Positions 43,680-49,484 of a stretch of DNA of 64,000 nt are shown piece by piece. Position 1 is the first letter of the stretch. Each line of letters begins with the position of its first letter. Location: positions 15,163 through 79,162 of the IMG/VR virus record IMGVR_UViG_3300049846_001393, one strand, 5' to 3'. Source of the DNA: a virus. The notes beneath the pieces were generated by a model. The model saw only the letters and a list, made by a program, of their open reading frames with translations. It had not been told where the DNA came from and searched no databases. The position numbers were made by a program, and so were the translations under genes.

Positions 43680-43701
43680 AAAAAGCCCGCCGAAGCGGGC
43701 T
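43680..43701 (-). terminator. intrinsic terminator
   Basis: AGCCCGC-TTCG-GCGGGCT-TTTT on the minus strand. Confidence 0.85.
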
Positions 43702-46799: not shown

Positions 46800-47549
46800 T
46801 CAGTCAGGAACACAAGATTTCCAAATGAAATCTAGAGCCCCCGTGTGGATCTGACAAACCCTTGACTCAGTTACCTCAAGCATCTCACCAATCTCTTTAA
46901 GAGAAAGACCCTCAATATAATGCAAGAAGAACACAGTCTTTTGCTGACTGCTAAGATCCTTAAACGAATCAAAAATCTTTTCTCTCAAAACTAAAAGATC
47001 TTCTTCATCTAAAACCTGATAGTTATTTGACTCATCAGGAATAATATCTGAAAGTTTAAAAGAATCTCCATCAGAATTAATAACTTCATCAATATTAAAA
47101 ACTGAAGCGGTACTACCAGCACCCTTAATTCTTGATATATCTTTTATATTCCAACCTAGTGCTTCAGCAACTTCTTCATCACTTGGCTCTCGTCCCAGAT
47201 CATTGGACAATTTCTCTGAAACAAAATCAATCTCACGATTCTTAGACCTTAAAGAACGTGGAGCCCAATCAAACTGACGAAGCCTATCAAGAATTTCTCC
47301 ACGAATTCTAAAACTGGCATAGGTTTCAAACTTATAACCATACGATGAATCATATTTTGTAATAGCATCCATCAGTCCAATAAAACCATCTGAAACAAGA
47401 TCATCATAGTCTACGTGATTAGGTAGACCTCTGGCGATGGAAGCAGCAGTGCTCTTAACAAGATATTCATAGGCAATAACTAAATCTTGAAAAGTAGAAC
47501 CATCAATTAAATATTGATTCCATAATTTTTCTGTATCCATAAAAAGCAT
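46800..47549 (-). CDS. RNA polymerase sigma factor, FliA/WhiG family
   Basis: DDLVSDGFIGL, FETYASFRIRGEILDRLRQFDWAPRS, LKEIGEMLEVTESRVCQIH. Confidence 0.93.
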   Translation of the reverse strand: MLFMDTEKLWNQYLIDGSTFQDLVIAYEYLVKSTAASIARGLPNHVDYDDLVSDGFIGLMDAITKYDSSYGYKFETYASFRIRGEILDRLRQFDWAPRSLRSKNREIDFVSEKLSNDLGREPSDEEVAEALGWNIKDISRIKGAGSTASVFNIDEVINSDGDSFKLSDIIPDESNNYQVLDEEDLLVLREKIFDSFKDLSSQQKTVFFLHYIEGLSLKEIGEMLEVTESRVCQIHTGALDFIWKSCVPD

Positions 47550-47649
47550 CTTAATGGTAAAAATACTTATTTAAACACAAAAACAAAAGAACTCATTTCT
47601 CAGTTAAGGCAGACTTCACCCCACCCCACAGGGAAAAACAGCAAAACTG

Positions 47650-48078
47650 TAACGGTCGGTGTCTTCACCTAAATGATATCTCAATCACTGGATCAGATTA
47701 CTACTCAGCAAGTTGCTTAGATGAAACTGCCCAGACGTTCCTTTACCAGTTTCCCTGCTTTTCGCTTGGGACGGCACTGATGACGGATTGCCCACCGGAA
47801 GAGTCAAGGCCACCTTCAGTCCTGCGGCGCTGTATGGGGCGCATCCCACAATCTTCATTCAGTTTTCTAAGCAAGCCGAGTGTAGGTCACGCTCAGCGAT
47901 TGTAATAACGCGAGCACAGAAACCAGGCTCTTCGAGGAGAATTTGTCTTAATGTAGATAAGGAACAGAGCTCTCGAGTCGTCCGGGTGCGACCGTCCAGT
48001 TATCTAGATAATATCATATTCCCTGACATCTTCCTGGGAATCACACGAGCATTGTTTTCATTTGCGACCGATCCGGTC
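47650..48078 (-). ncRNA. large multi-stem structured RNA of unknown class
   Basis: ~590-nt gap without a credible ORF; end-closing and internal long-range helices; G-U pairs favour the minus strand. Confidence 0.65.
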
Positions 48079-48093
48079 CATTATGTTAACAAA

Positions 48094-48122
48094 ACTGTCG
48101 TTATAGATACTGTAGCGACAGT
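48094..48122 (+). promoter_or_regulatory. 13-bp hairpin in the 5' region of the phosphoesterase gene
   Basis: ACTGTCGTTATAG-ATA-CTGTAGCGACAGT, with two G-U pairs on the plus strand. Confidence 0.5.
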
Positions 48123-48140
48123 CGCCTGAAAGGTTTCCCA

Positions 48141-49484
48141 ATGGCACAAAAGCCCAAGGGGGTTGCCGACCACCCAGCAAAAGATCTGATGGAACAGATC
48201 TGGAAGTCTGGTGGTCGTGCCAAAGATATCGTTGCTTTCTTGGAGGAGAACTCCCTACCTCTTGTAAAAGAAGCAACTATTGCTCGTTATGGTCAGAGAT
48301 TCTGGAATGAGCAGATCAAGATCACTACAGAGTCTGAATCTCCTGAAGATATTGCTACCACTATAAAAAAGATTGAAGATAGTGGTGTAGCTCGTGTAGT
48401 AAAGCTTTCTCATTCAAAAAAGAAGTATCCTGGATGGGAAAAAATTAATGGTGAAAATATTCAGGTAGAAAAAGAGTCTAACTCTTGGAATATTGATCTT
48501 GTTCCATCTCTACCTGCTCCAGATAAAGCATCTATTGGATCTTTTAAGATTAATGTTAAGGGTGTTAAGAAGCAGTCGAAGCCACATGGCTGGAATGTTG
48601 GGCTTGTTGTGCCTGACCCACAGATCGGATATTTCCGTGATGTGGATGGAAATTTGACGACAACCCACGACGAGGCAGCCCTGAACGTGGTTCATCAAAT
48701 TGGTGTATATCTTAATAACACCTATGGTCTTGACCTTACGGTTATCCTCGGGGACAACCACGACTTCAGTGCTTTCTCTACACATAGAAGCGCACCTGGC
48801 TATACGACCAATACCCAGTTAGAGATTGATCGCTTTGGAACTGAAGTTGCGTTGCAGCGTGAGATTGCTCCTAATGCGGAAATTGTAGTGTTGAGCGGAA
48901 ATCACGACGACCGCCTTAACAAGGCTATCGTAGATAAGCTTCCTGCTCTTGCTGGAATATCTAAAGCAAATAGCAGAGATCCAATCCTTTCAATTGCAAA
49001 TCTTTGTAGATTTGATGAATATGATATTACTTCAATAGAGGCATATCCTGATGGAGAATACTGGGCAAATGAATACCTAAGATTTGAACACGGATCAAAG
49101 GTTTCATCTGCTCCAGGCAGCACTGCTGCAAAATATCTATCAGATCTTAAAGTGTCCACAATCTATGGACACACGCACCGTCAAGAACTGGTATACTCAA
49201 GAATCCGTGGCAGAGGTTGGACAAGACCCATCTTTGCTGGGACACCGGGGACAACAGCAAGAATTGATGGCGTCCTTCCTTCAGGGCAGACCGGAATCAC
49301 ATCGAAGGGTAAGCAGGCTGGAAACTTCACAGAGAAGTGGCAGCAGGGTATCTTTGTGGTCTGGTATCAGCCAGAAGGTGATCAAAAAGCAGTAGTCGAA
49401 CCCGTTCTTATAGAAGAAGGATCTGCCTTCTACAGTGGTCAGATATTTGAGTCCACTGTAAATAAGAACGGGGATGAGTTATGA
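48141..49484 (+). CDS. calcineurin-like metallophosphoesterase with N-terminal extension
   Basis: PDPQ, LGD, GNHD, HG, GHTH motifs. Confidence 0.85.
   Translation: MAQKPKGVADHPAKDLMEQIWKSGGRAKDIVAFLEENSLPLVKEATIARYGQRFWNEQIKITTESESPEDIATTIKKIEDSGVARVVKLSHSKKKYPGWEKINGENIQVEKESNSWNIDLVPSLPAPDKASIGSFKINVKGVKKQSKPHGWNVGLVVPDPQIGYFRDVDGNLTTTHDEAALNVVHQIGVYLNNTYGLDLTVILGDNHDFSAFSTHRSAPGYTTNTQLEIDRFGTEVALQREIAPNAEIVVLSGNHDDRLNKAIVDKLPALAGISKANSRDPILSIANLCRFDEYDITSIEAYPDGEYWANEYLRFEHGSKVSSAPGSTAAKYLSDLKVSTIYGHTHRQELVYSRIRGRGWTRPIFAGTPGTTARIDGVLPSGQTGITSKGKQAGNFTEKWQQGIFVVWYQPEGDQKAVVEPVLIEEGSAFYSGQIFESTVNKNGDEL

What the first reader, a model, noticed from the sequence alone, without database searches (positions are those of the whole stretch)
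47650..48078. Large ornate non-coding RNA upstream of the phage sigma factor
Seen, in a ~590-nt gap of an otherwise gene-dense genome (plus-strand sequences): end-closing pairings CGGTCG 47653-58 with CGACCG 48065-70 and AAATGA 47671-76 with TCATTT 48058-63, around a GGTG/CACC hairpin; ACTGGA with TCCAGT (47687-92 / 47995-48000); a long helix CTCAGC..TTGCTTAGA..AAACTG (47704-47729) with CAGTTT.TCTAAGCAA.GCCGAG (47860-47880) enclosing several hairpins; further stems at 47891-47915 and 48018-48041; and a perfect palindrome TTATCTAGATAA (48000-48011). Three mismatches become G-U pairs only on the minus strand, and an extended -10 (TGTTAACAT) lies just upstream on that strand. An alternative pairing (47652-58 with 47989-95) hints at a switch or pseudoknot. 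I do not recognise tmRNA, RNase P or group I/II intron cores. Inference: a GOLLD/ROOL-scale phage RNA or a new class, either standalone or a leader controlling sigma expression.
Basis: partly seen in the sequence, partly recalled or inferred. Interest (0 to 1): 0.82.

Follow-up and report, generated by a model that had tools for sequence, protein, structure and literature searches.

The report
Conserved leader RNA before phage sigma
A roughly 290-base non-coding stretch just upstream of this freshwater phage's sigma-factor gene is conserved better than the gene itself in seven related phage contigs and most likely makes a folded RNA of an undescribed family.

Summary
It folds no better than shuffled sequence (z about -0.6 on both strands). 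Its outer half, 47900-48065, is variable or deleted in relatives.

What is real is a ~290-nt element at window 47605-47895. It lies on the minus strand, the same sense as the sigma-28-like gene. I found it in 8 aquatic viral or metagenome contigs (about 6 lineages), always between a diverging phosphoesterase gene and sigma-nrdJ.

- Its nucleotides are 82-92% identical between lineages, against 71-77% for the sigma gene.
- It holds no conserved reading frame.
- It matches no Rfam family.
- Two hairpins and one long-range pairing show repeated compensatory changes, and two more helices show one each.
- Conserved G-U pairs fit the sigma-sense strand.
- The core also folds no better than shuffles. 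Several C-run and G-run pairings are mutually exclusive or cross each other, so the overall fold is unresolved.
- No canonical terminator separates the element from sigma. The unit ends at a strong terminator at 43684-43701.

My reading is a new, narrowly distributed leader RNA at the head of the sigma-nrdJ operon, with unknown mechanism. I found no expression data. This scan noted the same stretch once before in this genome, from an overlapping window.

The parts
47605..47895 (-). Conserved non-coding element of about 290 nt, the candidate structured leader RNA. This is the real feature.
   Evidence: Alignments A2/A3 of 8 sequences have long invariant blocks. Core identity is 82-92% against 71-77% for the sigma gene. 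There is no conserved ORF and no Rfam match. Another window's reader of this scan placed the same element at 47598-47898.
47881..47886 (-). 5' strand of the long-range pairing H1. Its partner is the variable patch at 47753-47758.
   Evidence: A3 columns 32-37 with 163-168. Two pairs change on both sides (CG/GU/GC and CG/UG/AU), and 83% of cells are paired. The pairing is weakest in the window and L001.
47753..47758 (-). 3' strand of H1, a hypervariable patch inside an otherwise invariant block.
47867..47880 (-). 5' strand of the long closing helix: CUCGGC, UU, GCUUAG.
   Evidence: GCUUAG/CUAAGC is invariant in 8 of 8 sequences. The extension duplex is -12.1 kcal/mol in the window and -10.4 in L006/L012 with different sequences. 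It is weak or absent in L004, L001 and L002.
47704..47720 (-). 3' strand of the long closing helix: CUAAGC, AACUU, GCUGAG.
47798..47817 (-). Hairpin GAAGG / UCUUC with a 10-nt loop.
   Evidence: A3 columns 104-108 with 119-123. There is one compensatory A-U to G-C change in L002 and a conserved G-U pair. The variable positions fall in the loop.
47730..47770 (-). Helix CCC(A/G) 47770-47767 with (U/C)GGG 47733-47730.
   Evidence: A3 columns 151-154 with 188-191. The window alone has A-U where all 7 relatives have G-C, a change on both sides.
47673..47688 (-). Hairpin GUGAU-UGAGAU-AUCAU, the best-supported stem.
   Evidence: The stem reads UGAU/AUCA (window), UGGU/ACCA (L001), UACG/CGUA (L002, L004 group) and UGCG/CGCA (L006, L012). 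The closing G-U is conserved in all 8.
47638..47650 (-). Hairpin ACAG-UUUUG-CUGU.
   Evidence: The stem reads ACAG/CUGU (window, L001), GUAG/CUAC (L002, L012) and GCAG/CUGC (L004 group, L006). The loop varies in length.
47617..47633 (-). C-run/G-run hairpin (CCC, loop, GGGG) followed by a second GGGGUG. The second repeat could pair with CGCCCCA at 47835-47841.
   Evidence: A local hairpin is predicted in every lineage. The long-range option, A3 columns 79-85 with 314-320, is 96% paired but never varies, so it cannot be tested.
47657..47669 (-). Invariant block G(A/G)UGAAGACACCG. It is a candidate partner of UCAUC 47779-47783 and CGGUG 47793-47797, which would form a pseudoknot across the closing helix.
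   Evidence: A3 columns 138-142/253-257 (U-A changing to U-G) and 124-128/261-265 (invariant) are 100% paired. This is inferred; no change on both sides was seen.
47899..47911 (-). Promoter-like motif GCGTTAT + TACAAT directly 5' of the element.
Evidence: TACAAT, TACGAT or AACAGA is kept at this place in all lineages. The sigma-70 consensus scan does not call it. The start site is not mapped.
47912..48065 (.). Variable spacer, not part of the conserved element.
   Evidence: It is divergent in L001, mostly deleted in L002, and has a different length and sequence in L004 and L006.
48078..48140 (+). Conserved promoter and 5' UTR block of the diverging metallophosphoesterase gene, with TCGTTAT at 48098-48104 and the hairpin CTGT-AGCG-ACAG at 48110-48121.
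   Evidence: It is near-invariant in the window, L001 and L002 and recognisable in L004 and L006.
46800..47540 (-). Sigma-28 (FliA/WhiG)-like sigma factor gene, the first gene after the element.
   Evidence: Pfam Sigma70 regions 2, 3 and 4, and PHROG 351. Relatives start at MD(T/I), which corresponds to 47540. The nearest database proteins are named FliA or WhiG by their sources.
43684..43701 (-). Canonical intrinsic terminator that closes the sigma-nrdJ-HTH unit headed by the element.
   Evidence: AGCCCGC-TTCG-GCGGGCT followed by a T-run, with 7 pairs of which 6 are G-C.

Best explanation
Window 47605-47895 (minus strand) is a roughly 290-nt structured non-coding RNA element of a family not in Rfam. 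It is confined to a small clade of uncultured freshwater phages.

Shown:
- It is under stronger nucleotide-level constraint than the neighbouring sigma gene.
- It is not protein-coding.
- It always lies 60-100 nt upstream of, and in the same sense as, the sigma-28-like gene that opens the sigma-nrdJ-HTH unit.
- At least five of its helices keep pairing through base changes.
- Its conserved G-U pairs fit only the sigma-sense strand.

Inferred:
- It is transcribed from a promoter just upstream (near 47899-47911) as the 5' leader of that roughly 4.2-kb unit. No canonical terminator separates it from sigma, whereas the unit ends in a strong one.
- It acts in cis to set the amount or timing of sigma (and nrdJ) expression.
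- The most likely way is a switch between its mutually exclusive C-run/G-run pairings and pseudoknot-like contacts, in response to a signal I cannot name, or a direct action on the transcribing polymerase or on the stability of the message.

I put about 0.6 on "functional sigma-sense RNA" and about 0.35 on the cis-leader mechanism in particular.
For: - Conservation: 8 homologous sequences (about 6 lineages) share the same synteny. Core identity is 82-92% against 71-77% for the sigma gene in the same pairs.
- Composition: G+C is 0.49-0.54 against 0.30-0.40 in the sigma-side flank.
- Not coding: 1-nt indels at A3 columns 98 and 195 shift every frame, the window's 57-aa ORF is not kept, and substitutions show no 3-base periodicity.
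- Structure: my 40-pair model is 96.9% paired and has 5 pairs changed on both sides, against 1.9 in shuffles (1 of 500 reach it). Its covariation score is 0.134 against 0.077 (0 of 500). Slid controls reach only 32-47% paired. Hairpins 47673-47688 and 47638-47650 each show three or four different complementary stems.
- Strand: the conserved G-U pairs (A3 108-119, 233-249), the U-A to U-G change at 141-254 and the wobbles in H1 would be A-C mismatches on the other strand. The alifold energy is -113.5 for the sense strand against -107.2 for the antisense.
- Operon context: no terminator-like site lies between the element and sigma in the window, L004 or L002. There is a canonical terminator at 43701-43684. 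The element sits at the head of the minus-strand gene block.
Against: - Thermodynamic folding is no better than shuffled sequence for the core in three lineages (z = -0.22, +1.00, -0.60), and the MFE structures differ between lineages.
- There are only about 6 lineages at 82-92% identity. I chose the helix model on the same alignment I scored it on, so the shuffle statistics are optimistic. Most pairs never vary.
- Many alternative pairings fit equally well, and the closing-helix extension is absent in L001 and L002.
- No transcript evidence could be obtained.
- No expression platform is visible. The conserved part ends 60 nt or more before the start codon, the spacer is A+T-rich and poorly conserved, and the sigma gene has no Shine-Dalgarno sequence to sequester.
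- L006 and L012 have a weak hairpin plus T-rich tail after the element, which could end a separate transcript.
- The 3' part contains CCGTTAC (47647-47653), which resembles the candidate phage promoter motif. Part of the conservation could therefore be at the DNA level.
Confidence: 0.55

Rival explanations
1. It is a stand-alone, trans-acting structured RNA gene, for example a protein-binding or scaffold RNA made early in infection. It merely sits next to the sigma gene, which has its own promoter in the A+T-rich spacer.
For: The 60-90 nt between the element and the start codon are A+T-rich and poorly conserved, and no expression platform is visible. L006 and L012 have a hairpin followed by a T-rich tail right after the element. 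Long invariant single-stranded-looking blocks such as GGUGGGCAAUCCGUCAUC suit a ligand- or protein-binding surface.
Against: No canonical terminator follows the element in the window, L004 or L002, although the phage uses a strong canonical one at 43684-43701. No sigma-70-type promoter is called in the spacer of the window, L004 or L006. The strict linkage to sigma in all 8 contigs fits cis action at least as well.
Confidence: 0.22
2. It is a promoter-proximal RNA that acts on the polymerase that makes it, giving put-like processive antitermination or pause control. That would let transcription run through the sigma-nrdJ unit, or beyond its terminator into the long leftward block.
For: The element lies directly after a promoter-like motif at the head of a block of about 47 kb of genes all on one strand. 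There is a strong terminator 4 kb downstream that could be overridden. No expression platform is needed for this mode of action. Other agents of this scan proposed the same for unrelated phage leader RNAs, which is a lead only.
Against: It is four times larger than the put RNAs and shows no resemblance to them. There is no experimental or comparative evidence of antitermination. Late genes appear to have their own nCGTTAT motifs, so read-through is not required.
Confidence: 0.1
3. It is a DNA-level element: a cluster of promoter and operator sites, or a replication origin at the divergence point of the two gene blocks. The hairpin covariation would then reflect DNA hairpins or chance.
For: It lies at a divergent transcription point with a local turn of cumulative GC skew. 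nCGTTAT-like motifs occur at both ends of the element (47905-47911 and 47647-47653) and in the diverging promoter. RNA folding energy is unremarkable.
Against: Near-invariant stretches interrupted by patches that covary over about 130 nt (H1) are not what binding-site arrays look like. Conserved G-U pairs are meaningful only in RNA. I noticed no iteron-like repeats while reading the alignments, but I did not run a repeat search. The GC-skew turn is explained by the switch of coding strand and is not the minimum for the window.
Confidence: 0.08
4. One reading: a single ornate RNA of about 430 nt (47650-48078), closed by the 47653/48065 and 47671/48058 pairings, on the scale of GOLLD or ROOL.
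For: The pairings exist in this genome. L001 keeps CGGTCG in the same place by shared ancestry.
Against: 47900-48065 is not conserved and is largely absent in L002, and the spacer differs in length and sequence in L004 and L006. The fold is no better than shuffles. There is no Rfam match to ROOL, GOLLD or anything else.
Confidence: 0.03
5. It is a small protein-coding gene, the 57-aa ORF 47685-47858 on the minus strand or the 113-aa ORF 47788-48129 on the plus strand.
For: Both ORFs are open in this genome.
Against: Neither has a Pfam or PHROG match. Frames are shifted by indels in 6 of 8 relatives, stops appear in the homologous frames, there is no start codon in L004, and the third position carries no excess of changes.
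Confidence: 0.02

Closest known systems
ROOL and GOLLD RNAs, the large ornate RNAs often carried by phages and prophages
   Same: It is phage-borne, non-coding, richer in G+C than its surroundings, has long conserved blocks, and has no known function.
   Different: It has no covariance-model match at the gathering score or at E <= 10. The conserved length is about 290 nt, against roughly 580 and 800 nt for ROOL and GOLLD (sizes from my own knowledge). It is fixed as the leader of a sigma-factor operon. Covariation is much weaker, and thermodynamic stability is not above shuffled sequence.
HK022 putL/putR and other promoter-proximal cis-acting leader RNAs of phage operons
   Same: It sits directly after a promoter-like motif at the head of a long run of genes on one strand, in the same sense as those genes. 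No terminator lies between it and the first gene, and it would need no expression platform.
   Different: The put RNAs are about 70 nt with two stem-loops (my own knowledge), whereas this element is about 290 nt with long-range pairings. There is no sequence or fold resemblance. Antitermination was not tested.
Pseudoknotted riboswitch leaders in 5' UTRs
   Same: It is in a 5'-UTR position. It has an invariant core with variable, covarying peripheral stems. Candidate pseudoknots exist (the 5' tail with an internal patch, and the core with the 3' block). Mutually exclusive pairings are possible.
   Different: It matches no known class. It has no terminator-antiterminator pair or ribosome-site-sequestering helix. 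No ligand is suggested beyond the gene content (sigma and a B12-dependent ribonucleotide reductase). Its distribution is very narrow.
Bacterial RNase P RNA. I considered it because AAGGAACGUCCGGGC and UAGAUGAA resemble its conserved regions I and IV (recalled from memory).
   Same: Two short motifs resemble the conserved regions.
   Different: No RNase P model scores even at E <= 10. The CCGGG motif pairs locally with CCCG (47770-47767 with 47733-47730, with a compensatory change) rather than forming a P4-type long-range helix. The order of the elements does not fit the RNase P topology.

Membership tests
ROOL / GOLLD (Rfam families) | A covariance-model match at or near the family's gathering score | tested here: not met
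   cmscan of the whole window at the gathering score gave only two tRNAs. cmscan of the region and of two homologs at E <= 10 gave only chance-level snoRNA-type hits.
ROOL / GOLLD (Rfam families) | A conserved length of several hundred nt (about 580 to 800) with many covarying helices | tested here: not met
   The conserved span is about 290 nt. Only about 5 helices show any compensatory change.
tmRNA | A tRNA-like domain plus a tag reading frame | tested here: not met
   ARAGORN finds only tRNA-Tyr and tRNA-Asn elsewhere in the window. There is no Rfam hit.
RNase P RNA | A covariance-model match and a P4 long-range helix between conserved regions I and V | tested here: not met
   No RNase P model scores at E <= 10. 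The region-I-like motif pairs locally instead.
Known riboswitch classes, including cobalamin, preQ1, 2'-dG and c-di-GMP | A covariance-model match to the aptamer | tested here: not met
   None is listed at E <= 10 in the window, L004 or L002.
Known riboswitch classes, including cobalamin, preQ1, 2'-dG and c-di-GMP | An expression platform (terminator or start-site sequestering helix) coupled to the aptamer | tested here: not met
   No conserved terminator-like site lies between the element and sigma. The conserved part ends 60 nt or more before the ATG.
put-type cis-acting antiterminator RNAs | A promoter-proximal position at the head of an operon, in the same sense | tested here: inconclusive
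   The position and strand fit. The transcription start is not mapped.
put-type cis-acting antiterminator RNAs | A two-stem-loop RNA of about 70 nt that makes the polymerase terminator-resistant | not testable with these tools
   The size clearly differs (about 290 nt). Activity needs an experiment.
Structured non-coding RNA in general | Pairing kept through compensatory changes, beyond controls | tested here: met
   5 pairs changed on both sides against 1.9 in shuffles (1 of 500 reach it). 96.9% of cells are paired against 32-47% when the partners are slid. Caveat: the model was chosen on the same 8 sequences.
Structured non-coding RNA in general | Folding energy lower than that of shuffled sequence | tested here: not met
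   z = -0.22, +1.00 and -0.60 for the core in three lineages.
Structured non-coding RNA in general | The element is transcribed | not testable with these tools
   No listed run is on record as RNA, and the four runs I laid were low-depth contigs that are probably DNA.

The most novel reading that the evidence does not exclude
It is the aptamer-like core of a new, large, pseudoknotted regulatory RNA class. By sensing a small molecule or binding the host polymerase, it decides when a phage switches on its own sigma factor (and with it the B12-dependent ribonucleotide reductase). That would be an RNA-level master switch of the phage's early-to-late programme.
Probability: 0.15. Interest if true: 0.75.

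Novelty: new variant of a known kind. Interest (0 to 1): 0.5.

Why it matters
Sigma factors encoded by phages set the timing of late gene expression, and little is known about what controls the sigma gene itself in uncultured freshwater phages. A 290-nt leader that is better conserved than the sigma gene points to control at the RNA level. If it proves to be a riboswitch-like or polymerase-acting RNA, it would add a new class and a handle on phage developmental timing.

As it stands, it is one more orphan candidate RNA motif with a narrow distribution. Its value is as a defined target (coordinates, strand, alignment A3, model R1) for transcript mapping and structure probing.

Tried and rejected
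**Searches that came back empty or unusable**
- Rfam at the gathering score and at E <= 10 on the window, L004 and L002 gave nothing real.
- GenBank phages, blastn of the gap: no match. The 8-kb neighbourhood gave one irrelevant 129-nt hit. tblastn with the sigma protein found no isolate above 38% identity.
- Four different exact or degenerate patterns against IMG/VR always returned the same four contigs.
- The metagenome scan gave 8 stretches. Three contigs were new relatives (L008, L012, L014), one repeated L001, and the other four stretches were chance matches on three distinct sequences.
- Prokaryote genomes: the first pattern gave 0 hits. The second gave 3, all chance matches inside G+C-rich coding sequence.
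- The L019 contig, which is cut 85 nt upstream of its sigma gene, has no copy elsewhere.
- More distant sigma-28-like phage loci (L023-L042) have no homolog by nhmmer or by covariance model R1 with filters off, and no Rfam family upstream of sigma.
The relatives that hold sigma proteins P0003-P0015 in other assemblies could therefore not be fetched, which capped the alignment at 8 sequences.
- Sequencing runs: no RNA holder is listed. The four runs I laid were low-depth contigs, probably DNA, and say nothing on expression.
- One literature search found no description of such an element.

**Ideas rejected**
- RNase P, tmRNA, 6S RNA and a cobalamin riboswitch, because no model matches. For RNase P the motif pairs locally instead.
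- A small ORF.
- The 47891-47915 stem, the 48018-41 stem and the 48000-11 palindrome as parts of the RNA, because they are not conserved.

**Left unresolved**
- The 5' tail (47881-47886) can pair with the internal patch, with AGUAG (47701-47705), or with the 3' G-runs.
- CGCCCC (47836-47841) can form a local GCGC hairpin or pair with the 3' GGGGUG.

Full report
**Setting.** The window is part of a 79-kb IMG/VR virus record. The finding lies in a 590-nt gap between two diverging genes. On the minus strand is a sigma-28 (FliA/WhiG)-like sigma factor, 46800-47540/47549, followed by a class II (B12-dependent) ribonucleotide reductase and a small HTH protein. On the plus strand is a metallophosphoesterase, 48141-49484. 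All genes to the left of the gap are on the minus strand, so the gap heads a long block of genes on one strand. The first unit of that block (sigma, nrdJ, HTH and two small ORFs) ends at a canonical terminator at 43701-43684.

**Checking the observation.** As a fold it is not remarkable. The MFE of 47640-48085 gives z = -0.61 on the plus strand and -0.66 on the minus strand, with a quarter of the shuffles folding as well. Rfam gives nothing in the gap, either at the gathering score or at E <= 10, and ARAGORN finds no tmRNA.

**Relatives.**
- Searches with the sigma protein and with exact DNA patterns found homologous loci in four IMG/VR contigs and three further metagenome contigs: L001, L002, L004, L006, L008, L012 and L014. 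All are aquatic.
- In every one where the flanks are present, the order is phosphoesterase gene, gap, element, sigma gene.
- Nothing was found in GenBank phages or in prokaryote genomes, where the only hits were chance matches in coding DNA.
- Nothing was found upstream of more distant phage sigma-28-like genes, by nhmmer or by a covariance model.
The family therefore stands at 8 sequences in about 6 lineages.

**What is conserved.**
- The three-way alignment of the whole gap shows two conserved parts. One is a 60-nt block next to the phosphoesterase gene (48078-48140). The other is a block of about 290 nt next to sigma (47605-47895).
- The stretch between them (47900-48065) diverges in the closest relative and is mostly deleted in L002. 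It has yet other lengths and sequences in L004 and L006.
It also contains the 48018-41 stem and the palindrome. The 430-nt architecture is therefore not conserved.
- The 290-nt block has invariant runs of up to 22 nt. It is 82-92% identical between lineages whose sigma genes are 71-77% identical.
- Its G+C is 0.49-0.54, against 0.30-0.40 on the sigma side.

**Not coding.** The window's 57-aa and 113-aa ORFs have no family match. Single-base indels at alignment columns 98 and 195 shift all frames in six of the eight sequences. The homologous frames acquire stops, and the variable columns are spread evenly over the three codon positions.

**RNA structure.** The evidence is mixed. Against a stable fold, the core folds no better than shuffles in three lineages (z = -0.22, +1.00, -0.60), and the MFE structures disagree with one another.

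For a fold, several helices keep pairing through base changes:
- Hairpin 47673-47688 has four different complementary stems (UGAU/AUCA, UGGU/ACCA, UACG/CGUA, UGCG/CGCA) and a closing G-U that never changes.
- Hairpin 47638-47650 has three (ACAG/CUGU, GUAG/CUAC, GCAG/CUGC). GUAG/CUAC occurs in two lineages that are not sisters.
- The 5' tail (47881-47886) covaries with a hypervariable patch 130 nt away (47753-47758).
- Hairpin 47798-47817 and helix 47767-47770 with 47730-47733 each show one clean A-U to G-C exchange.

A 40-pair model built from these helices plus three invariant ones is 96.9% paired. It has 5 pairs changed on both sides, against 1.9 in shuffles (1 of 500 reach it), and only 32-47% pairing when partners are slid by 1-3 columns. 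I chose this model on the same alignment, so these numbers are optimistic.

GCUUAG/CUAAGC is invariant. Its outer extension is strong in the window (CUCGGC/GCUGAG) and in L006/L012 (CUUGGA/UCCGAG), but weak or absent in the other lineages.

The 5'-tail pairing, and a candidate pairing of 47779-47797 with 47657-47669, both cross this helix and would be pseudoknots. That could explain the poor nested-fold statistics. It is equally true that the four C-runs and six G-runs allow many alternative pairings that I could not separate.

**Strand.** The conserved G-U pairs, and the U-A to U-G changes in the supported helices, would be A-C mismatches on the plus strand. The consensus fold energy is also slightly better in the sigma sense, -113.5 against -107.2.

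**Transcription context.**
- Directly 5' of the element lies GCGTTAT-TACAAT (47899-47911). The TACAAT-like hexamer is kept in all lineages.
I confirmed that motif in front of three late genes and of the phosphoesterase gene.
- The consensus sigma-70 scan calls no promoter here.
- No terminator-like site lies between the element and sigma in the window, L004 or L002. L006 and L012 have a weak hairpin followed by a T-rich tail.
- The 60-90 nt before the sigma start are A+T-rich, poorly conserved and lack a Shine-Dalgarno sequence.
- No RNA data could be obtained (see Tried and rejected).

**Interpretation.** The best reading is a new, narrowly distributed structured RNA, transcribed in the sigma sense as the leader of the sigma-nrdJ unit and acting in cis on its expression. 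I rate "functional sigma-sense RNA" at about 0.6 and the cis-leader mechanism at about 0.35. Rivals are a stand-alone trans-acting RNA, a put-like RNA that acts on the polymerase, and a DNA-level control region.

**Comparison with known families.** It fails the membership tests for ROOL, GOLLD, tmRNA, RNase P and all riboswitch classes in Rfam 15. In position it resembles promoter-proximal phage leader RNAs such as HK022 put. Other agents of this scan have reported unrelated leaders of that kind in other phages, which is context and not evidence.

**Novelty and score.** It is an undescribed RNA family of a familiar general kind, a conserved orphan leader or ncRNA motif. The support is moderate: strong conservation, limited covariation, no thermodynamic signal and no expression data. 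Interest 0.5.

Noticed in passing
window 43684-43701 (minus strand): A canonical intrinsic terminator (AGCCCGC-TTCG-GCGGGCT plus a T-run) closes a leftward unit of about 4.2 kb made of the element, the sigma gene, nrdJ, an HTH gene and two small ORFs. It shows that the host reads classical terminators, so the lack of one after the element is informative.
   Followed up: partly
window 48078-48140 (plus strand): A block conserved in all relatives in front of the metallophosphoesterase gene. It holds TCGTTAT (48098-48104), a small hairpin CTGT-AGCG-ACAG (48110-48121) and the invariant GCGACAGTCGCCTGAAAGGTTT. It is probably the gene's promoter and 5' UTR.
   Followed up: partly
window 17566, 18756, 28980 (minus strand); 47905-47911; 47647-47653; 48098-48104: An nCGTTAT motif recurs in intergenic DNA in front of late genes, preceded by TTTAA-like sequence 11-15 nt upstream, and also flanks the element. 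In a crude scan, 4 of its 33 occurrences were called intergenic, against about 4% intergenic DNA; the copies inside the gap were miscounted as coding under a spurious ORF.
   Followed up: partly
L025:1061-1500, L026:1183-1500, L033:880-1500: More distant phage contigs also have 300-600 nt of ORF-free, G+C-rich sequence directly upstream of their sigma-28-like genes. These stretches are not homologous to this element and match no Rfam family. Long leaders before phage sigma genes may be a recurring theme.
   Followed up: partly
window 47540-47549: The sigma ORF is listed from the ATG at 47549, but all relatives start at MD(T/I), which corresponds to 47540. The shorter start is the likely one.
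   Followed up: yes
window 48000-48011: The perfect palindrome TTATCTAGATAA lies in the variable spacer. L001 has TTATCAAGATAA and the other lineages lack it. It may be a lineage-specific operator and is not part of the conserved element.
   Followed up: partly
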